Sequence record: OQ174504.1
Length of the DNA stretch: 64,000 bases
From: Escherichia phage REP5
Strand: one strand, 5' to 3'
Shown here: positions 167-53,235 of the stretch, one piece after another
Position numbering within the stretch: position 1 is the stretch's first letter
Layout: every line of letters starts with the position of its first letter
The notes under the pieces: generated by a model
Database searches by the model: none
What the model was told of the DNA's origin: nothing
Seen by the model: only the letters and a program-made list of their open reading frames with translations
Translations under genes and position numbers: made by a program

Positions 167-421
167 ATTAAGTCTTTTTAGAGAACTTCTAAGAACCTAA
201 GCAACAAGGTTCCACAACAAGCTGTAATAACCTTAGAAGCCCTCTAAAAAGACCTAAAAAGGTCTTTGCATAGTCTTGTTTAATCCGGTGACTAGAACCT
301 TTGGAGAGCTTGATATTATCTCTTCTCCGTGACACCTACTAGGTGTTTTATCAATGTGTACAACAATACACGCGGTATACCAAAGCAACATCCGAATGAA
401 GCTTGGCTTTAAATCTTATTA

Positions 422-524: not shown

Positions 525-607
525 TGGCATGGGACGGAGGAGTTGAACCCCTTTGAAACGGTGTTGGAAGCCGTTGCTCATGCCTTAGAGTCTTAACATC
601 GTCCCAT
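525..607 (-). tRNA. tRNA-like element, atypical anticodon arm (9-nt loop), isotype unresolved
   Basis: Acceptor ATGGGAC/GTCCCAT plus CCA, T-arm GGGGTTCAACTCC; stem AACGG/CCGTT encloses a 9-nt loop. Confidence 0.4.
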
Positions 608-749
608 ACTATAATTCGAAGCTTACCGTATTATCTCAACACTGTAAAGCCCCTTCTCAGATTATTTACATGTTCTGGAAAACATGAGATACAGACCACC
701 TCCCTACAGGAAGACCCGCTTAGGTCGTCTAAGTAATCTGCTAACTATT

Positions 750-826
750 TGGCACACCCTACAGGATTCGAACCTGTAACTCAATGATTAGAAGTCATTT
801 GCTCTGTCCAGTTGAACTAAGGGTGC
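750..826 (-). tRNA. tRNA-Arg (anticodon UCU)
   Basis: Acceptor GCACCCT/AGGGTGT, anticodon arm AATGA-CUUCUAA-TCATT, T-arm ACAGGTTCGAATCCTGT, CCA encoded. Confidence 0.6.
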
Positions 827-1073
827 ATTAATCTTTAAAGACTCTCTTAGAAAGCCCTTAAAGATGCCCACCTTATTAATCATACCGTGGGCTAGTACGC
901 CAAATTCTTTGATGAGGGATTGGAAGACCTCACTGGTGTTTAGCCTATCAAGCTACTGCCAGAAAAACATTGTCGTTTGCATTTATTTTAAATTTGCAAA
1001 ATAGACGCTACGCAACGAAAACTAAGGTTACTATAAAGTGGTCACATCTCAGTGTCAACAACTTTATTGAAAT

Positions 1074-1149
1074 TGGTACTGTGAGAAGGATTCGAACCTT
1101 CTGCCTTTCGGTTATCAGCCGAATGCACATCCATATGTGCTTTCACAGC
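1074..1149 (-). tRNA. tRNA-Ile (anticodon GAU)
   Basis: Acceptor GCTGTGA/TCACAGT, D-stem GCAC/GTGC, anticodon arm TTCGG-CUGAUAA-CCGAA, T-arm GAAGGTTCGAATCCTTC. Confidence 0.6.
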
Positions 1150-1151
1150 TT

Positions 1152-1229
1152 TGGAGGTTCAGATGGGAATCGAACCCACATTCATAGGGCTTATGAGACC
1201 CTTGCATTACCTTATCTGCGACTGAACCA
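1152..1229 (-). tRNA. tRNA with CAU anticodon (Met or Ile2)
   Basis: Acceptor GGTTCAG/CTGAACC, anticodon arm AGGGT-CUCAUAA-GCCCT with three G-C pairs, T-arm GTGGGTTCGATTCCCAT. Confidence 0.55.
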
Positions 1230-1232
1230 TTT

Positions 1233-1308
1233 TGGTAGAAGTGGAGGGATTCGAACCCATCGCCTGTCAGATTAAAAGTCTGCCGCATCACCATTCTGCT
1301 ACACTTCC
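1233..1308 (-). tRNA. tRNA-Lys (anticodon UUU)
   Basis: Acceptor GGAAGTG/CACTTCT, anticodon loop CUUUUAA, T-arm GGGTTCGAATCCC, CCA encoded. Confidence 0.55.
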
Positions 1309-1312
1309 ATTA

Positions 1313-1456
1313 AATTATCTTTGTAGATAAGCTACCCAGACTTGCTTAAGGTCTGTAGCGATGTGCCTTGTTGGGTTTAAATCTAGAATTTACCCTTTCA
1401 CCCTTTGTGGTCGCATACTCACAGGTAAGCTTAATAACTTATCTACAAAGATAATT
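1313..1456 (-). ncRNA. Candidate structured small RNA or processing element (19-bp inverted repeat enclosing 106 nt)
   Basis: aattatctttgtagataag at 1313-1331 is the exact reverse complement of 1438-1456; lies between tRNA genes. Confidence 0.3.
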
Positions 1457-1739
1457 ACCAGACCGTTGTTTATCATCTTAAGTGCTACCATTACACCAAC
1501 TCGACATCTGCCGAGTGAAGGAATCGAACCTTCACCTTTTCTTTACCGGAGAAATAGATTGTTTAAGTTTTGCTGTAAACGGTCTTCTGTAAATTTGTTG
1601 AGCCAGACCAAGTTTTAAATTTTTCAAAATTAAATTGGCTTGAAATTTTCATACGTTCTTGCTGTATTTGGTCTTCTGCTCCTTTAAAGAATACTCGTAA
1701 GAACTCTTTAAGGGAGGGGCTAAATAGCCCTCTCAAAAT

Positions 1740-1825
1740 TGGCGGCTACGATGAGACTTGAACTCACATCATCTCCCAATATCCTTTTACGTGGGAGTAT
1801 TTTAACCAAATTAAACTACATAACC
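1740..1825 (-). tRNA. tRNA-like element, 86 nt, anticodon arm unresolved
   Basis: Acceptor GGTTATG/CGTAGCC with G-U pairs, T-arm GTGAGTTCAAGTCTCAT, CCA encoded; central stem CTCCCA/TGGGAG encloses 11-nt loop. Confidence 0.4.
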
Positions 1826-2003: not shown

Positions 2004-2087
2004 ATATTTAGTATTACCAGACCGTATCTTTCAATTTTTTCCGCTAAAAATTTGATAAGTGTTGCTGTAAACGGTCTTCTGTAAAAT

Positions 2088-2163: not shown

Positions 2164-2255
2164 AATTCTTAATGACCAGACCAAATCTCTTCTTTGTCCG
2201 ATTTACCTTCAGATGAATAAGATTAAGTTTGCTGTAATTGGTCTTCTGTCAAAAC

Positions 2256-2420: not shown

Positions 2421-2585
2421 ATAAACTTTTCAAACTCTATGTAACCACTTTAACATTATTTTTTAGTGGTTGTCAAGAACTTTTTTAAAATATTTTTCAG
2501 TATCTTAGAAAAGCTCTCATTTCGTTTCTATGTAGAACATATTAAAGGGTATTAAACACATTGTCAATACCCTTTTTAAAACTTT

Positions 2586-4001
2586 TTACCAGATGTAACG
2601 GTCAATCGTTACTGCTTTGAGCATTACGCTGATTGGGTCAAACTTCTCACCACCAAGCAGAGCTTTTAAAGTGGCTGGAGAGAACCCTGATACCATTGCT
2701 ACACCGTTATCCTTAACAGATACTTCGCAAGTACCATTACGGTTTGCTAAGTACCAGAATACCAGTTGTGGCATCTCATATCCAGCTTTTTTGTACTTAC
2801 TCTGAATTGCTTCAAAGTTTGTACGACCGTTAGCTCCATCAACCTGATTGAACTCCATATCGGAGAAGATGATAAGCTTACTTGGCATATCTTTCTGAGT
2901 CAAGTTGTTTCTCTTACCTGTCTCAAGGATGCGGTCAAAAGCTGCTTGTAAGTTAGTTGAACCATATTCAACATGTCGCATCACCTGACGGTGACGGTTC
3001 TTTAAATCGCCACTCAGTTCGATGAAATGAGGGTTTGTTGAATAAACCATTAACTCGTTCTTAAAGCAACCTGTATTGCGTTCTGCTACATACAAGGCAA
3101 GTGATACACCAATATCAAGGGCAGTAATTGAGCCAAAATTCACCCAAGACATTGAACTTGAAACATCAGACATACATAGAATGTTTTCACCCTCTGCCAT
3201 CCAGTTTGGTAGTGCTTTCCACTGCTCATTAGCAACATCTGCATTACCATACTTAACAGATTTAATCACATCGTATGGATAAACAGCACCAGCGTTAATC
3301 TTAGTCTCACCCTTTGATAAGGACTCGATGTAAGCTTTGTAACGCTCTCCATCTTTACGGTTAAACAGTTTTTGGTAACGTGCAGCAGCAAGTGAAGGAA
3401 TCTTACTGTAGTCAATATTACCAAACTCATTAGCAGAGATTTTTTGCTCAACTGTATCAGATAGTGCAGACAATAGTGTGCGGTACTCTTTCTCACTCAA
3501 GTTGGCAAACTTGCAGAAACGTTTTACAAACTGCTTATGACGTGGTTTGACTCGTGGTAACCACTTAGCTGCTAAACCTGCTGTTGCAGGGTCTAGTAAA
3601 GCTGCTTCTAAATGTTTGAAGGCATCTGTCTCGAAACGAGTACCTACAAAGATTTTGAAGTCATCAAAACGACCAAGTTCTGCAATCTTATCCATAATGC
3701 GAAGAACCTGCGTAGGCTCTAAAACTTTATCTTCAATCGCTTGAAGTAAAACAGTTCGGAAAGCTTTACGCTCACCCATACCCTCTCGTACATCTCGCAT
3801 ATGCAGTAAAATACGAACTGCAACATCAACATCCTCATGCAAAGCTTTGTAGAACAAGTCTGGTAAGATTTCTACATTGCTACGGCTAGAACCAGCAGCT
3901 TTGTAAAAGTCCACAAGAGCAGACATTGATGAAGTATGGTTTACAGCACCATTTTCAGTTCGACCTGCATGAAGGTGCGCATGTTTAAATAACTCGCTCA
4001 T
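2586..4001 (-). CDS. vWA-domain protein with MIDAS-like motif (possibly Ro60/TROVE-like or DUF2828-like)
   Basis: 471 aa ORF; DVSSS metal-ion-site motif followed by vWA-like strands; helical N-terminal half; co-oriented with downstream tRNA cluster. Confidence 0.6.
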   Translation of the reverse strand: MSELFKHAHLHAGRTENGAVNHTSSMSALVDFYKAAGSSRSNVEILPDLFYKALHEDVDVAVRILLHMRDVREGMGERKAFRTVLLQAIEDKVLEPTQVLRIMDKIAELGRFDDFKIFVGTRFETDAFKHLEAALLDPATAGLAAKWLPRVKPRHKQFVKRFCKFANLSEKEYRTLLSALSDTVEQKISANEFGNIDYSKIPSLAAARYQKLFNRKDGERYKAYIESLSKGETKINAGAVYPYDVIKSVKYGNADVANEQWKALPNWMAEGENILCMSDVSSSMSWVNFGSITALDIGVSLALYVAERNTGCFKNELMVYSTNPHFIELSGDLKNRHRQVMRHVEYGSTNLQAAFDRILETGKRNNLTQKDMPSKLIIFSDMEFNQVDGANGRTNFEAIQSKYKKAGYEMPQLVFWYLANRNGTCEVSVKDNGVAMVSGFSPATLKALLGGEKFDPISVMLKAVTIDRYIW

Positions 4002-36045: not shown

Positions 36046-36439
36046 AGATACAGCACCAATGTTGGCACGACCTACATAAAACTCTTCACCATATTCGTTA
36101 TGGTATGGTGATAAAAATGCTCTACACTTGTTGTTCAGGTAAGTTCGCTAAGCTTACCCCGCTTTATTCAAGCTGCTTACTGTCGCCAGTAAGTCCAGAC
36201 TATATCTTCTACTTATTTCTAAGTAGCGTACCATTTCGAGTCGCTTGACCCTACACCGCTACATTCATCACGGTTAGTCGTTCGGCATTTAGATGTATTC
36301 AAACTCATATTCGAAGTTATTTGGCATGTAAGACCCCTATGTTGTATAGTTTCTTACATCGTACATCATTTAGCACAGGATTGTCTACATCTGTAGAGTT
36401 TCCCTGTTTAGGCACGTTTTAGATGAGCTATAGAGCTTG
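36046..36439 (-). other. Putative group I intron in nrdD (boundaries approximate)
   Basis: About 394 nt between the two nrdD ORFs; on minus strand P-like CAGGGAAAC, Q-like AATCCTGTGC, R-like GAACGACTAAC and S-like GATATAGTC occur in canonical order. Confidence 0.5.
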
Positions 36440-37639
36440 TTAACCCATCGGCGAAATAACCTTGCCAGAACGCTCAAAAGCTTCTGCTACAGCACCATGA
36501 CCAGATACACTTAAGAAGTCTGGATACATTGCTTTAGAACAACACTCAATAGCTTTACTGTACAGGTGGCCTTGACAGATATTCTCATTGTGTCTCTTCT
36601 GGTCATAAATATAAACCAGTTTAGGGAATACAACAGGCTTCTTGCTCTTACCTTGTCCATTCATACGAACATCTAGGAGAGTACTTGCAATCATGTATTG
36701 CAGTCGGTTGTCTTCATTAGACATGTCTGAGTCAAGTAACCCAAATGTCAAAGTTGTGAATGCAAAATCCCCACGACTACAAGGTACAGTATTTAGTTTC
36801 ATTTCAAGTGACTGGAAACCTTGAGTTAGCTCAATCTGTAGCTGCTCCATGACATAATTGTGGTGATGTTCTTTAGGAATACCATAAGATGCTGCTTTCT
36901 CAGCATGATAGCGTAGAGACTTCTTAGCATACGGTACAAGTACCTTATCAATCTCTGCTAAAGTAAAGCCACCAAATTGCTGTGCAGTTGCTGAAAGTAC
37001 TACGTCACCAATAACCTGTAAGGCTGATAGTACAGATTTAGGTTCACAGTATTCAATGCCAGACATTTCAAAGCCACCTTTCAGTACTTTACCAATGTCA
37101 AACAGGCAACAGTTGATACCACCAAAAATTAGGTCTCTTAAATCATGGATATAGATAAACCCTTTTTCAATGGCTTCCAATTCCTCTGGTGTTAAATGGT
37201 ACTGTTTAAAGATTTCTTTAGTCAGGTAACCACGGATAATTGAACCTTTCGTAGAAATTAAACTGCTGTCAAAGTTAGCATTTTCACGGTCACCTAAGAA
37301 GAGTGTATCTTTAGTCTTCTGGTAGAGTTCATCCCAGTTTTGAGCAACCTCTTTACGGTAATTTCTATATGTTGAGTAAGACTCATAAATCTCGTGATTG
37401 ACTTCTGCCAAAGCACCCTCAACAATACTGTGAATATCATTTACTGAAACGAGTAAATTATTCTGCTTAGTAGATTTTACCAGAATCCTCATAAATGCTG
37501 ACTCAAGAGCTTGAGTAACATCTGGTGGAAGCTCTTTATAACCAACTCTGTTAGCTGACTTTGTGACTGCTGCTAAAACTTTTTTGATATCAGGTTCTTC
37601 AAGTGAGCCATTCTTTTTAATAATCTGTACTTTGTTCAT
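36440..37639 (-). CDS. nrdD: Anaerobic ribonucleoside-triphosphate reductase, N-terminal exon
   Basis: 399 aa ORF with ATP-cone-like N-terminus; continues into 35179-36045 after the intervening sequence. Confidence 0.75.
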   Translation of the reverse strand: MNKVQIIKKNGSLEEPDIKKVLAAVTKSANRVGYKELPPDVTQALESAFMRILVKSTKQNNLLVSVNDIHSIVEGALAEVNHEIYESYSTYRNYRKEVAQNWDELYQKTKDTLFLGDRENANFDSSLISTKGSIIRGYLTKEIFKQYHLTPEELEAIEKGFIYIHDLRDLIFGGINCCLFDIGKVLKGGFEMSGIEYCEPKSVLSALQVIGDVVLSATAQQFGGFTLAEIDKVLVPYAKKSLRYHAEKAASYGIPKEHHHNYVMEQLQIELTQGFQSLEMKLNTVPCSRGDFAFTTLTFGLLDSDMSNEDNRLQYMIASTLLDVRMNGQGKSKKPVVFPKLVYIYDQKRHNENICQGHLYSKAIECCSKAMYPDFLSVSGHGAVAEAFERSGKVISPMG

Positions 37640-50824: not shown

Positions 50825-52967
50825 ATGGAAAACGTAGATTTTAAAAACTTACATTTAGTTGGTGATACAGAAACTGATGGTTTACTCCTTGAGTTCACTA
50901 AAGTGCACGTAATGGCTTTCGCAGACTATAAATCTGACGATGAAGAGCCACCTGTATGGGTCTTTACAGATGAGCCTATCCTCGGTCACAAGTACACTAA
51001 GTACATCAAGGGTGGTTTACGTGAAGGTGTTGAGTTTGCGTTAAAGGCAAAACGACTTTGCATCCATAACGGCCTCGGTTATGACTGGTGGGTTTTCAAT
51101 CACATTGCACCTGATTTATGGAACTTTGATAATCCAAAGTGTAAACCGTGGAGTAATTTCTTTCAGGATTCTCTTATCCAGTCTCGTGTTCAGTGGATGG
51201 ATAGACCAACTCCAAAGGGTTATAAAGGTGCTCATGGTTTGGCTGCATGGGGTGCTCGTGTTGGTGTTCGTAAACCAGAGATTGAACATTGGGGTGTGTG
51301 GAATGCAGAAATCTTCACTCGTGTTGTAGAAGATATCCGTATTAACGCCAAAACTAAACGGGCACTTGATAATGAATATCTCAAGCTTAAGAAGTGTGGC
51401 ATAGATACTTATGAAACCTACATGCGAGCTAAAGAAACATCTTTCTGGATGAGTCAACAAGCTATCAATGGCTGGAAAGCTGATAAAGAGCTTATGGAGT
51501 TCCATGTAAAGGAACTTGACAAGTTGACTAATGAGCTTGCTTCAGAAGTTGAACCACACCTTCCACCAACTATTAAGACCAAAGGTAAAGTCACTGGAGA
51601 AGAATTTGCAAAAGCTTGGAATGAGTATGTTGAAGCATTCGGTCATGCAGATGGACTGAAGAGGATTACCAAGTACCCTAAGACAAAGTATCGTCAGCAG
51701 GTACGTAATGGTGAGATGCAGACATATGAAATCAAGCCATTTGGTAAGCCAACTACAAAGATTTTTAACATTGAAAAAAGGAATTGCTATACACCAACCA
51801 ACTCTGTAACTGGTGAAGAGTACAAGGAAGGTTTTGTAGCAATGAAGGATGCTCGTGCAATTTGCAATGAGTTGAACGCAAAGATTGGTAAGAAATGCAA
51901 AGACTGGAAGCCAGTAAAAACAGTCAAAACTGTGAAGTACTATAACAGCCACGTTGTTAACCACTTTGAACTTGAGTCAAGTCGCTACACGGGTTTGATT
52001 GATGCACCATATACACCAATTGAGTTTGAAGTTTCTCGTATGACTCAGGTAGCAGTTGTTAAAGACTACTTGAAATCAGTTGGTTGGATTCCAGATGACT
52101 GGAACTACAAGAAAGACTCAGACGGTCGCCCTGTCAAAGTTTGTCGTTTCAAAGACAATAAAAAGATGATTACAAAGCATCCTAAGTGGCAGGAGATGGT
52201 AGAGCGGTGTGGTTTGAGCTATGTTGAGCATGAAGGTGTACAGTACATTGAGCATAACTGGTCTGTGAAGAAGTACACAGATTTGCTTGAGCCTTGCTTA
52301 ATCCGTACTTCACCAAAGCTTACTGAGTCATCTTATGATACGATTGAAGGTGAACTTGGACAGAAGATTGCTAAGTACTATACTTTGATGCACAGACGCA
52401 GAACTATTGAGAACTCAAAGGATGATGAAAAAGGTTGGTTGAACCAGATTCGTCCTGATGGTCGCCTTAGTGCTGGCGCAATGGTGTTTGGTACTTCAAC
52501 TGGACGCATGACACAATATGGCATTGTAAACGTACCGTCTGGTGCTGCTGTCTATGGAGCACCGATGAGGGAAGTGTGGATTTGCGAGGAAGGGACTAAT
52601 ATCGTTTCAGTTGACCAGAACTCAGCCCAGCTAGTTCTCCTTTGTAACTTTATGGGTGATAAAGAGTTCACTAAAGCGGTAACTGAAGGTAAAGAGTCAG
52701 TAGAATTTACTAAGCAAGATGATGGGAGATATTATTGCAAACATCTTGACAAGTATCTTAACCCAGAAACTGACAAGTATCTGCGTTATGATGCTGAAAA
52801 TGACCTCTATGAAGTCTACACAGGTACTGATGCACATACACTGAATAGTATTTACTTTGGTCTGAACAAGGAAGAAGATATTGTTCGTTGTAGGGAGACA
52901 CAGGATGAGGAACTTCTCCACGAGATTACAAAAGGTCGTAAGAAAGCCAAAAATGGCATTTATGCGT
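50825..52967 (+). CDS. Family A DNA polymerase, exon 1 (3' boundary approximate)
   Basis: Start at MENVDFKN after RBS gagggag; 3'-5' exonuclease motif VGDTETDGL; motif A-like VSVDQNSAQLVLL; motif B begins RKKAKNGIYA. Confidence 0.8.
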
Positions 52968-53235
52968 CAGTGGCGCATGTAAAACGTTGTGAATTGCTGG
53001 AAGCCTAAGTCTGAGAAGATACGGTAATCAGCAGCGAAGCCTCTTAAGAGGAACGTTCAGAGACTATCGAAAAGCATACTTAACGTATGAACTGAGTAGA
53101 GTAGGGTGGTAAGCTAATGACCATCCCCAAGTGCAACGGTAGCACCACTGCTACGTGATATAGTCCGACACTCCGTAGAAATGCGGAGAAGTTCATAAGA
53201 GAACTGGTACACCTTGCGAGTGTATTGACCAGATG
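52968..53235 (+). other. Group I intron in DNA polymerase gene (boundaries approximate)
   Basis: P-like AATTGCTGGAAG 52992-53003, Q-like AATCAGCAGC 53026-53035, R-like GTTCAGAGACTA 53055-53066, S-like GATATAGTCC 53157-53166; interrupts motif B. Confidence 0.65.

What the first reader, a model, noticed from the sequence alone, without database searches (positions are those of the whole stretch)
525..1825. tRNA cluster includes tRNA-like elements with atypical anticodon arms and structured spacers
Elements at 525-607 and 1740-1825 have a clear acceptor stem, T-arm and CCA but their central regions fold into stems with 9-11 nt loops. The spacer at 1309-1739 holds a perfect 19-bp inverted repeat (1313-1331 with 1438-1456) and a T-arm-like hairpin without an acceptor stem (about 1509-1570). 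These may be non-canonical tRNAs, small stable RNAs or processing signals.
Basis: seen in the sequence. Interest (0 to 1): 0.5.

Follow-up and report, generated by a model that had tools for sequence, protein, structure and literature searches.

The report
Phage Y RNAs hidden between tRNAs
In this Felix O1-like phage, the odd pieces of the tRNA cluster are an unannotated tryptophan tRNA with six extra bases, an aspartate tRNA with a wrecked anticodon loop, and spacer RNAs that look like the Y RNA partners of the Ro60-like protein encoded next door.

Summary
The window is a Felixounavirus, identical to Escherichia phage REP6. Its tRNA operon is on the minus strand.

- **Element A (525-607).** A conserved, covarying tRNA-Trp(CCA) with a 6-nt insertion between the acceptor and D stems and a C31·A39 mismatch. 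tRNA finders miss it. It fills the only Trp slot of the cluster.
- **Element B (1740-1825).** A rare allele of tRNA-Asp(GTC), found in 9 phages. The 7-nt anticodon loop is replaced by 15 nt, so it probably cannot decode.
- **The "structured spacers".** These hold four copies of one module: a helix, then ACAGCAA, a variable interior, and the return strand followed by G.
  - One copy (1454-1595) contains V, T, acceptor-like and D arms, which is the architecture of bacterial YrlA Y RNAs.

The gene directly upstream (2586-4001) folds like Ro60 and is 97% identical to Bas63 gp130. The helix+ACAGCAA module recurs next to Ro60-like genes in distant phages, with heavy covariation.

I read this as a new variant of the Ro60-Y RNA system, released by tRNA processing. 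Binding and expression are untested.

The parts
525..607 (-). Element A: an 83-nt non-canonical tRNA-Trp(CCA). Acceptor stem 601-607 with 529-535, then G73 and CCA. A 10-nt connector at 591-600 replaces the usual 2 nt. D stem CTC/GAG, anticodon CCA at 565-567, C31·A39 mismatch, T loop TTCAACT.
   Evidence: 19 pairs are 99.4% paired and 8 pairs show compensatory changes. Deleting 6 nt in silico gives an ARAGORN tRNA-Trp call. It is mutually exclusive with an ordinary tRNA-Trp at the same site.
1740..1825 (-). Element B: a tRNA-Asp-derived gene in which the anticodon loop CTGTCAC is replaced by the 15-nt loop ACGTAAAAGGATATT (1778-1792). The rest of the cloverleaf is intact.
2173..2252 (-). Y-like module 1, short type. 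Helix AGACCAA (2238-2244) with TTGGTCT (2178-2184), motif TTACAGCAA, and an outer 4-bp stem. It starts right after tRNA-Glu.
2014..2085 (-). Y-like module 2, short type. Helix AGACCGT (2071-2077) with ACGGTCT (2019-2025), motif TTACAGCAA. It lies between tRNA-Met and tRNA-Asn.
1600..1682 (-). Y-like module 3, short type. Helix AGACCAA (1668-1674) with TTGGTCT (1605-1611), motif ATACAGCAA.
1454..1595 (-). Y-like module 4, a YrlA-type tRNA mimic. Closing helix 1579-1585 with 1460-1466, ACAGCAA at 1570-1576, V stem-loop 1538-1554, T arm 1517-1533, capped acceptor-like stem 1499-1516, U8-G9, and D arm 1481-1497.
   Evidence: The acceptor-like stem covaries across three lineages. The element occurs in 247 phage records.
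1311..1458 (-). It contains an inner hairpin, AGAC CUUAAGCAAG GUCU, that looks like a minimal copy of the module.
   Evidence: There are 4 compensated pairs, and the G·U pairs exist only on the minus-strand RNA.
1679..1735 (-). Two small stable hairpins directly after element B. Function unknown; they may be processing sites.
   Evidence: z = -4.0.
2586..4001 (-). Gene for a 471-aa Ro60-like protein (Pfam DUF2828 + DUF7788). It has a helical-repeat N-terminal part and a vWA domain with a DxSxS MIDAS motif. It is 97% identical to Bas63 gp130.
2447..2567 (-). Two sigma-70-like promoter matches between the Ro60-like gene and the first tRNA. They are possible operon promoters.
   Evidence: These are consensus matches only, and their number is not above the shuffled expectation.

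Best explanation
The region is the start of a phage tRNA operon, transcribed leftward from just downstream of a Ro60-like gene.

**Spacers.** Between the tRNAs lie five RNAs built on one plan. A helix of about 7 bp is followed, after 2-3 nt, by single-stranded ACAGCAA. A variable interior comes next, then the return strand and a G.
- In module 4 the interior is a permuted tRNA shape with V, T, capped acceptor and D arms, as in bacterial YrlA Y RNAs.
- Modules 1-3 have short interiors, like YrlB and other short Y RNAs.
- I infer that RNase P and the 3' tRNA-processing enzymes cut out the flanking tRNAs and so release these spacers.
- I also infer that the helix+ACAGCAA site is bound by the Ro60-like protein. 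The resulting RNP would act on host or phage RNA metabolism, including the anti-defence role reported for Bas63 gp130.

**Element A** is the phage's tRNA-Trp. It is an ordinary cloverleaf apart from a conserved 6-nt expansion of the acceptor-D connector and a C31·A39 mismatch.

**Element B** is a tRNA-Asp allele, chimeric between two common alleles, whose anticodon loop was replaced by 15 nt. It most likely no longer decodes and is tolerated because tRNA-Asp is dispensable in this family.

**Shown here:** the sequences, folds, conservation, covariation, gene linkage and protein fold.

**Inferred:** transcription, processing, protein binding, aminoacylation and biological role.
For: **Identity and strand**
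- The window is 100% identical to REP6, and the tRNAs are on the minus strand.

**Modules in this window**
- The 20-nt motif CAGAAGACCNNNTACAGCAA occurs exactly 4 times. All four lie in the 1 kb downstream of the gene, against 0.22 expected.
- The motif is conserved in 35 related loci.

**Module 4**
- The consensus fold gives V, T, acceptor-like and D arms.
- The acceptor-like stem reads ACUCGGC/GUCGAGU, ACACG/CGUGU or ACCCUUC/GAAGGGU in three lineages.
- The Rfam tRNA model aligns the V arm, T arm and the first strand of the acceptor-like stem like the 3' two-thirds of a tRNA.

**Protein**
- The AlphaFold model has pLDDT 86.
- Its 11 best PDB matches are all full-length Ro60/TROVE structures, with TM up to 0.64 and E down to 5e-8. 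They include a phage Ro60.
- It is 97% identical to Bas63 gp130, and Bas63 carries the same modules.

**Generality, tested on 79 loci whose proteins are 29-47% identical**
- ACAGCAA occurs 133 times on the gene strand and 50 times on the opposite strand, and is concentrated within 1 kb of the gene.
- 47 of 82 near-gene motifs have an exact 7-nt complement of the bases just 5' of the motif, 20-210 nt downstream. The figure is 133 of 1640 for random positions (p = 5e-30).
- The helices use 40 distinct 6-mers among 54.
- Full T/acceptor/D mimics with the same motif occur in L121, L110, L090 and L070.
- A model built only from Felix-like sequences scores 49 and 40 bits on two of them.
- At least 25 loci have modules but no tRNA within 2.5 kb.

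**Element A**
- 8 of 19 pairs show compensatory changes, and 0 of 500 shuffles reach the observed values.
- Deleting any 6 nt within positions 9-18 makes ARAGORN call tRNA-Trp(cca).
- wV8-type phages carry an ordinary tRNA-Trp plus an HNH gene at the same site, and the two alleles never co-occur.
- The tRNA-Trp of an Erwinia relative has the same CGGC-CUCCAAA-ACCG arm.

**Element B**
- Relatives have tRNA-Asp(GTC) at this site.
- The long loop is identical in 9 phages from three studies.
- tRNA-Asp is deleted in HY02 and SP2.
Against: - No expression, processing or binding data exist for any of these RNAs.
- The protein is Ro60-like by predicted fold only. Sequence and profile searches against PDB find nothing, and Pfam calls DUF2828, not TROVE.
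- The 5' motif of known YrlA RNAs, GNCGAAN0-1G, is absent. No Rfam family other than tRNA matches.
- Only about half of the distant loci (39 of 79) show a strict module.
- Modules 1-3 are not unusually stable as folds, with z between -0.6 and -1.6.
- The covariation in module 5 rests on only two lineages.
- A tRNA with a 10-nt acceptor-D connector may not fold into an L-shape or be charged.
- In the Yersinia copy of A the acceptor stem has a bulge.
- The few substitutions in B are all structure-compatible. That could mean B is still under selection.
Confidence: 0.6

Rival explanations
1. The spacer structures are only cis-acting signals of the tRNA operon. They would be RNase III/E/P processing sites, terminators or attenuators, with no dedicated protein partner and no life as stable RNAs.
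For: - They sit exactly between tRNAs. Modules 1 and 2 begin at the 3' end of a tRNA.
- Module 5 is a 22-24-bp duplex, a typical RNase III substrate.
- Modules 1-3 are not unusually stable.
Against: - The same helix+ACAGCAA module follows the Ro60-like gene in at least 25 distant loci that have no tRNA within 2.5 kb.
- The single-stranded ACAGCAA is conserved between phages whose proteins are only 29% identical, while the helix sequence changes freely.
- Module 4 keeps a complete tRNA mimic, which a cleavage site does not need.
Confidence: 0.15
2. Element B is a functional non-decoding tRNA-like RNA. It could be a decoy for a host anticodon nuclease or another tRNA-binding defence factor, or a client of the Ro60-like RNP, rather than a broken gene.
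For: - The 15-nt loop is identical in 9 phages from different studies.
- The four substitutions elsewhere in B all keep pairing: C-G to U·G, and U·G to U-A.
- Phage tRNAs are proposed to evade anticodon nucleases through loop changes (PMC10264068; abstract seen, paper not read).
Against: - The allele is rare. It is absent from IMG/VR and from the other roughly 240 relatives.
- The divergence among carriers is too small to show selection.
- tRNA-Asp is simply deleted in some relatives.
- No source or motif was found for the loop.
Confidence: 0.2
3. Element A is a decaying tRNA pseudogene, not a working tRNA-Trp.
For: - No tRNA finder accepts it.
- It has a 10-nt connector, a 3-bp D stem, an A49·C65 mismatch and a C31·A39 mismatch.
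- The Yersinia copy has a bulged acceptor stem.
Against: - All four helices are kept, with 8 compensated pairs, across Felixounavirus, Citrobacter, Shigella and Yersinia phages. The insertion itself is invariant.
- It is the only CCA-anticodon gene in these genomes. Where it is missing, an ordinary tRNA-Trp replaces it.
Confidence: 0.1
4. The repeats act at the DNA level, as promoters or operators, homing-endonuclease targets, or a miniature inverted-repeat mobile element (1313-1456).
For: - HNH endonuclease genes are scattered through this cluster in relatives.
- Inverted repeats at the DNA level also keep their complementarity.
Against: - The helices contain G·U pairs that exist only on the minus-strand transcript.
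- The partner strand lies at variable distance, 44-125 nt away, and the motif is strand-specific.
- No relative was seen with a clean empty site for the 1311-1458 hairpin. Distant relatives have a diverged copy at the same place.
Confidence: 0.05

Closest known systems
YrlA / YrlB Y RNAs with bacterial Ro60 (Rsr), including mycobacteriophage examples (Chen et al. 2014, PMC4201824)
   Same: - The RNA genes lie next to a Ro60-type gene, and there are several RNAs per locus.
- One RNA has V, T, capped acceptor-like and D stem-loops enclosed by a 5'/3' stem.
- The T and D arms are conserved in sequence, and the acceptor-like stem is conserved only in pairing.
   Different: - The protein is DUF2828, recognisable as Ro60 only by fold.
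- The presumed binding motif is helix+ACAGCAA, not GNCGAAN0-1G.
- No Rfam match was found.
- The RNAs are interleaved with real tRNAs in one operon.
Thermus phage phiLo Ro60 with Yrl1/Yrl2 (PMC12135203, PDB 9KOP/9L5Y)
   Same: - A phage-encoded Ro60 with adjacent Y-like RNAs of stem-bulge-stem form.
- The phiLo protein is among the best structural matches.
   Different: - The phiLo RNAs carry the CGAA motif, lie upstream of the gene, and are not in a tRNA cluster.
- Sequence identity to the phiLo protein is about 14-15%.
Bas63 (JohannRWettstein) gp130, PhageMaP preprint (PMC11482910)
   Same: - It is the same gene, 97% identical.
- It was reported as structurally Ro60-like and as a counter of the Ppl defence.
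   Different: - The authors only guessed that some annotated tRNA genes might be Y RNAs.
- Here the candidates are the unannotated spacers, not the tRNAs. They are defined by a motif shared with distant phages.
T4 tRNA-cluster stable RNAs (species 1 and 2, RNA C and D). This comparison is from my own memory and was not checked here.
   Same: Small structured RNAs encoded inside a phage tRNA operon and released by tRNA-processing enzymes.
   Different: - No Ro60-like gene is known beside them.
- No sequence similarity was tested.
Canonical tRNA-Trp(CCA), and structurally unusual tRNAs such as those with 8/4 acceptor/T stems
   Same: - A has A1-U72, G73, CCA, the loop YUCCAAM and a T loop.
- G8 could pair with C65 to give an 8/4 arrangement (direct reading of the sequences).
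   Different: - It has a 6-nt insertion in the acceptor-D connector, a 3-bp D stem and a C31·A39 mismatch.
- I know of no described tRNA class with this connector.

Membership tests
YrlA-type Y RNA | Encoded next to a Ro60/TROVE gene | tested here: met
   Module 4 lies about 1 kb downstream of a gene whose model matches only Ro60 structures over its full length. Pfam does not call TROVE, so this holds at fold level only.
YrlA-type Y RNA | T-like and D-like stem-loops carrying tRNA-conserved bases, separated by an acceptor-like stem-loop that is conserved in pairing but not in sequence | tested here: met
   The arms are GAAGG-UUCGAUU-CCUUC and GUGU-AAUGGUA-GCAC, joined through U8-G9. The acceptor-like stem covaries in three lineages. 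The same arrangement occurs in L121 and L110.
YrlA-type Y RNA | A less conserved V stem-loop upstream of the T arm | tested here: met
   UUUCU-CCGGUAA-AGAAA at 1538-1554. A variant form is present in Michonne.
YrlA-type Y RNA | The 5' motif GNCGAAN0-1G, the presumed Ro60 contact | tested here: not met
   The 5' side reads ACAGAAGACCGUUUACAGCAA. The motif conserved across distant phages is ACAGCAA.
YrlA-type Y RNA | Match to a curated covariance model | tested here: not met
   The Rfam 15 scan at E up to 10 on 1440-1610 returns only a partial tRNA hit of 22.9 bits. I did not confirm which Y RNA families Rfam 15 holds.
YrlA-type Y RNA | Binds Ro60; modified by TruB and DusA | not testable with these tools
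   Needs immunoprecipitation, gel shift and modification mapping.
Ro60 / TROVE protein | A ring of helical repeats plus a C-terminal vWA domain with a MIDAS motif | tested here: met
   Foldseek gives TM 0.53-0.64 to 2I91, 1YVP, 2NVO and 9L5Y over about 520-570 columns. D279-x-S281-x-S283, T349 and D381 are invariant in 30 homologs.
Ro60 / TROVE protein | Sequence-level membership (Pfam TROVE, or profile hits to Ro60) | tested here: not met
   Pfam gives DUF2828 + DUF7788. phmmer and an HMM profile against PDB give no Ro60 hit.
Canonical tRNA (element A) | 7-bp acceptor stem, discriminator, CCA, and a T arm with a T loop | tested here: met
   ATGGGAC/GTCCCAT, G73, CCA, and GGGG-TTCAACT-CCTC. 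The pairs covary.
Canonical tRNA (element A) | 2-nt acceptor-D connector, 7-nt anticodon loop, and recognition by ARAGORN or the Rfam tRNA model | tested here: not met
   The connector is 10 nt. C31·A39 leaves a 9-nt loop. There is no call from either finder. The element is called tRNA-Trp only after 6 nt are deleted in silico.
Canonical tRNA (element A) | Aminoacylation with Trp and use in translation | not testable with these tools
   A1-U72, G73 and the CCA anticodon fit what I recall of E. coli TrpRS identity elements. This is from memory and was not tested.
Canonical tRNA (element B) | Cloverleaf scoring above the Rfam gathering threshold | tested here: met
   44.3 bits against a threshold of 29.
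Canonical tRNA (element B) | 7-nt anticodon loop with U33 and a readable anticodon | tested here: not met
   The loop is the 15-nt ACGUAAAAGGAUAUU. Annotators disagree on the identity: OTHER, Thr or Tyr, and ARAGORN with relaxed options gives Ile or Tyr.

The most novel reading that the evidence does not exclude
DUF2828 proteins and their helix+ACAGCAA RNAs are a distinct, widespread class of phage Ro60-Y RNA particles.

- Their RNAs are made as by-products of tRNA-operon processing.
- They use tRNA mimicry to disarm RNA- or tRNA-directed host defences. The reported anti-Ppl activity of Bas63 gp130 would then depend on these RNAs.
- The odd tRNAs of the cluster (A, B, and the SsrA-tag-like element at 885-995) would belong to the same translation and RNA-surveillance counter-defence toolkit.
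Probability: 0.25. Interest if true: 0.85.

Novelty: new variant of a known kind. Interest (0 to 1): 0.64.

Why it matters
**A large protein family gains candidate RNA partners.** Until now these proteins had no known RNA partner. One member already has a phenotype, countering a defence system in Bas63. The candidate partner RNAs and a short conserved binding motif make that system directly testable by immunoprecipitation, gel shifts and motif mutants.

**Annotation of phage tRNA clusters is incomplete.**
- tRNA-cluster "spacers" can be genes. 247 GenBank phages carry the YrlA-like RNA, either unannotated or covered by spurious ORFs.
- Standard tRNA finders miss a conserved tRNA-Trp, so tRNA repertoires of Felix O1-like therapeutic phages are under-counted.

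Tried and rejected
- **ARAGORN with introns or lowered thresholds** gives inconsistent calls for A and B (Pyl, Tyr, or Ile with a 6-nt intron). I do not trust them.
- **The REP6 GenBank feature "tRNA-Thr_GGT", 131 nt (window 1509-1639),** is an artefact. It stitches the V and T arms of module 4 to upstream sequence.
- **Small ORFs across the spacers.** These include the 85-aa ORF at 1361-1618 on the plus strand, and bas63_0137 and bas63_0138. They overlap the conserved RNA structures on the opposite strand, and I treat them as spurious.
- **Sequence-level tests for Ro60 homology** failed. PADLOC gave nothing.
- **Search for a donor of B's 15-nt loop** found nothing, either in the window or in IMG/VR.
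- **My first stem test for the modules,** any helix of 6 bp or more allowing G·U, was uninformative because 77% of random positions passed. I replaced it with an exact 7-mer test.
- **ARAGORN's "permuted tmRNA" in Moogle** is a chance combination of the T arm of module 4, a tRNA-Lys D arm and the tag-like element.
- **A manual multi-family alignment** of the YrlA-like RNAs could not be fed to the pair-counting tool. That covariation is therefore reported from direct reading only.
Full report
**Context**

Bases 1-2600 of the window are 100% identical to Escherichia phage REP6 and REP7. They are 92-97% identical to many Felix O1-like phages (genus Felixounavirus). All tRNA genes are on the minus strand. 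ARAGORN finds 12 of them in 1-2420. Directly upstream in the direction of transcription lies a 471-codon gene at 2586-4001, annotated "RNA-binding protein" or "vWFA protein".

**Checking the observation**

The coordinates are right.

- Element A (525-607) and element B (1740-1825) both have a 7-bp acceptor stem, a T arm and an encoded CCA.
- ARAGORN calls neither of them.
- The Rfam tRNA model misses A but scores B at 44.3 bits, with a 15-nt insertion where the 7-nt anticodon loop should be.
B's loop is 15 nt, not 9-11.
- The 19-bp perfect inverted repeat is real. It extends to 22 nt at 95% complementarity.
- The "T-arm-like hairpin" is real too, but it does have an acceptor-like partner (see the spacers below).

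**Element A is a tRNA-Trp with an insertion**

The element is 83-100% identical in all 28 relatives in which it was then found; it was later found in 33 of 38 loci. No record annotates it as a tRNA; where a feature overlaps it, the feature is a protein-coding ORF.

Its features, read from the sequences:

- A1-U72 (G1·U72 in some relatives), G73 and CCA.
- The T loop TTCAACT.
- An anticodon loop YUCCAAM with CCA in the anticodon position.
- Flanking bases C31 and A39 that cannot pair. This is why the loop reads as 9 nt.

On nine distinct sequences, from Felix O1 to Citrobacter, Shigella and Yersinia phages, my four-helix model gave these results:

| Measure | Result |
|---|---|
| Cells forming a standard pair | 99.4% |
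| Pairs with changes on both sides | 8 of 19 |
| Shuffles reaching the observed values | 0 of 500 |
| Covariation when partners are slid by 1-3 columns | close to none (0 compensated pairs; score at most 0.054 against 0.327) |

As an example, the anticodon stem is AACGG/CCGTT here and GTAAG/CTTAC in Michonne.

The only gross departure from a cloverleaf is a 10-nt connector between the acceptor and D stems (GATGTTAAGA). It is invariant even in the Yersinia phage. Deleting any 6 nt within positions 9-18 in silico makes ARAGORN call a 77-nt tRNA-Trp(cca).

Three facts make a tryptophan role likely:

- No other Trp tRNA exists in these clusters.
- wV8-type phages lack A. At exactly that site they carry an ordinary 71-nt tRNA-Trp(cca) followed by an HNH endonuclease gene.
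- Across 38 loci the two alleles never co-occur, and only one locus has neither.

The tRNA-Trp of an Erwinia relative has the same CGGC-CUCCAAA-ACCG arm, including the C·A mismatch. Charging and decoding remain untested.

**Element B is a rare tRNA-Asp allele with a replaced anticodon loop**

At this position relatives have a normal 77-78-nt tRNA-Asp with the loop CTGTCAC. In REP6 the loop is ACGTAAAAGGATATT (1778-1792).

- The 5' half equals the skuden-type allele and the 3' half equals the Felix O1-type allele. B is therefore a chimera joined at the loop.
- The same loop occurs, base for base, in nine GenBank phages: REP6 to REP12, Shigella phage Tf and Salmonella phage FGS030. Annotators call it OTHER, Thr or Tyr.
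- It is absent from IMG/VR, and no donor sequence was found.
- REP6 has no other tRNA-Asp. HY02 and SP2 lack the gene altogether, so losing it is tolerated.
- In other relatives an HNH endonuclease gene sits between tRNA-Tyr and tRNA-Asp. This makes break-and-repair a plausible origin, though that is inference.

I rate B as most likely non-decoding and possibly neutral. A decoy role cannot be excluded.

**The spacers carry a repeated RNA module**

On the minus strand the 20-mer CAGAAGACCNNNTACAGCAA occurs four times, at 2229-2248, 2062-2081, 1659-1678 and 1570-1589. It occurs nowhere else in the 64 kb without mismatches, against 0.22 expected.

Each copy folds the same way:

- An outer 4-bp stem.
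- A small internal loop.
- A 7-bp helix, AGACCRW pairing with WYGGUCU.
- Single-stranded (U)ACAGCAA.
- A variable interior.
- The return strand, followed by G.

Modules 1 and 2 begin at the 3' ends of tRNA-Glu and tRNA-Met.

Module 4 (1454-1595) has a long interior. It holds a V stem-loop, a T arm (GAAGG-UUCGAUU-CCUUC), a 7-bp acceptor-like stem capped by AGAU, then U-G and a D arm (GUGU-AAUGGUA-GCAC).

- The T and D arms are invariant in relatives.
- The acceptor-like stem changes completely while keeping its pairing.

This V, T, acceptor-stem, D order inside a 5'/3' stem is what Chen et al. describe for YrlA Y RNAs. Module 4 occurs in 247 phage records and is never annotated as RNA.

**The neighbouring gene is Ro60-like**

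- Pfam sees only DUF2828 and DUF7788.
- Sequence searches of PDB find nothing.
- An AlphaFold model with pLDDT 86 has Ro60/TROVE structures as its 11 best Foldseek matches, over the full length. They include Xenopus Ro60, Deinococcus Rsr and the Ro60 of Thermus phage phiLo. The next matches are isolated vWA domains.
- The vWA MIDAS residues are invariant in 30 homologs.
- The protein is 97% identical to Bas63 gp130. A 2024 preprint calls gp130 structurally Ro60-like and a counter of the Ppl defence. [quoted passage not shown]
- Bas63 carries the same modules.

**The link between gene and RNA holds in distant phages**

A Yersinia phage whose protein is 53% identical has at least four modules. 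Their helix covaries (GGACUG/CAGUCC) and they carry the same UUACAGCAA. Loci at 40% and 29% identity show the same plan.

I then tested 79 diverse loci:

| Test | Result |
|---|---|
| ACAGCAA on the gene strand versus the opposite strand | 133 versus 50, concentrated within 1 kb of the gene |
| Near-gene motifs with an exact 7-nt complement of the bases just 5' of the motif, 20-210 nt downstream | 47 of 82 |
| Same test at random positions | 133 of 1640 (p = 5e-30) |
| Same test on the opposite strand | 5 of 50 |
| Distinct helix 6-mers | 40 among 54 |
| Usual spacer before the motif | 2 nt |
| Loci with modules but no tRNA within 2.5 kb | at least 25 |

The last row shows that the module follows the gene, not the tRNAs.

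Complete T/acceptor/D mimics with the same motif occur in L121, L110, L090 and L070. A model built only from Felix-like sequences scores two of them at 49 and 40 bits.

**The inverted repeat**

The Moogle, Michonne and SUSP group has a diverged copy at the same place. It shows four compensated pairs and several G·U pairs that exist only on the minus-strand RNA. An inner hairpin, AGAC-CUUAAGCAAG-GUCU, resembles a minimal module. Two further small hairpins follow B at 1679-1735.

**Mechanism**

*Shown:*
- A family of covarying RNA structures with a conserved single-stranded motif.
- These structures are genetically linked to a Ro60-fold protein.

*Inferred:*
- The operon transcript is cut by RNase P and the 3' processing enzymes at the tRNAs, which frees the spacers.
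- The Ro60-like ring binds helix+ACAGCAA.
- The tRNA-like domain of module 4 recruits tRNA-binding factors, as proposed for YrlA.
- The particle modulates RNA decay or counters host defence.

**Comparison and novelty**

Ro60-Y RNA pairs are known in bacteria and in some phages: mycobacteriophages, CcrColossus, Bacillus phage G and phiLo. This case differs in four ways:

- The protein clade is Ro60-like by fold only.
- The conserved RNA motif is ACAGCAA rather than GNCGAAG.
- No Rfam model matches.
- The RNAs are embedded in a tRNA operon.

I file it as a new variant of a known kind.

A is an undescribed structural variant of tRNA-Trp. B is an oddity of low weight.

Noticed in passing
window 885-995, minus strand (between tRNA-Ile 1074-1149 and tRNA-Arg 750-826): A conserved element found in 595 phage records from several families: Felixounavirus, Kolesnikvirus, Kuttervirus, 46-kb Klebsiella phages and a lambdoid Enterobacter phage.

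- The Rfam tmRNA models align weakly, exactly at a tag-like reading frame. AUAAAU GCA AAC GAC AAU GUU UUU CUG GCA GUA GCU UGA encodes ANDNVFLAVA-stop. The E. coli SsrA tag, from memory, is ANDENYALAA.
- Other phages keep the frame with synonymous or conservative changes: ANDDQFLAVA, ANDNTFLAVA, ANEEMYLAVA and ANDAQFLAVA.
- The stop codon sits in a hairpin loop, and the next hairpin covaries.
- No tRNA-like domain was found beside it.
- An 11-of-12 sigma-70-like promoter lies just upstream at 1030-1058.

   Followed up: partly
L007 9394-9880 (phage wV8); also L013 and L022: An alternative cassette at the site of element A: a compact 71-nt tRNA-Trp(cca) followed by an HNH endonuclease ORF. It looks like an endonuclease-linked allele replacement.
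   Followed up: partly
L042 498-579 (phage REP8), at the site of tRNA-Arg(TCT): An 82-nt "tRNA-OTHER". It has an acceptor stem, a T arm and a UCU anticodon arm, but only about 7 nt where the D arm should be, and a long variable region. It is another non-canonical tRNA allele in this family.
   Followed up: no
L003 1621-2142; L014; L004: In BPS15S6 an HNH homing endonuclease gene lies between tRNA-Tyr and tRNA-Asp. In HY02 and SP2 tRNA-Asp is deleted entirely.
   Followed up: partly
L024 / L025 (Michonne, Moogle), module 4: The loop capping the acceptor-like stem begins with GCCA (ACCCUUC-GCCA-AACA-GAAGGGU). A cut in the loop would therefore leave a tRNA-like 3' end. The Felix group has AGAU instead.
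   Followed up: no
window 1509-1639; L127 2449-2723 and 3150-3290: Annotation artefacts caused by these RNAs:
- REP6 lists a 131-nt "tRNA-Thr_GGT".
- Bas63 lists the hypothetical proteins bas63_0137 and bas63_0138 on the opposite strand over modules 3-5.
- Bas63 also lists bas63_0142 over the tag-like element.

   Followed up: yes
window 168-257 and 608-749: Other spacers also hold strong hairpins, for example 26-nt arms at 168-193 and 232-257 that are 88% complementary. The 608-749 spacer is 93-100% conserved in most relatives. No ACAGCAA module is present there.
   Followed up: no
window 36176-36557 (-) and 52905-53188 (+): Two group I introns score above the Rfam gathering threshold.
   Followed up: no
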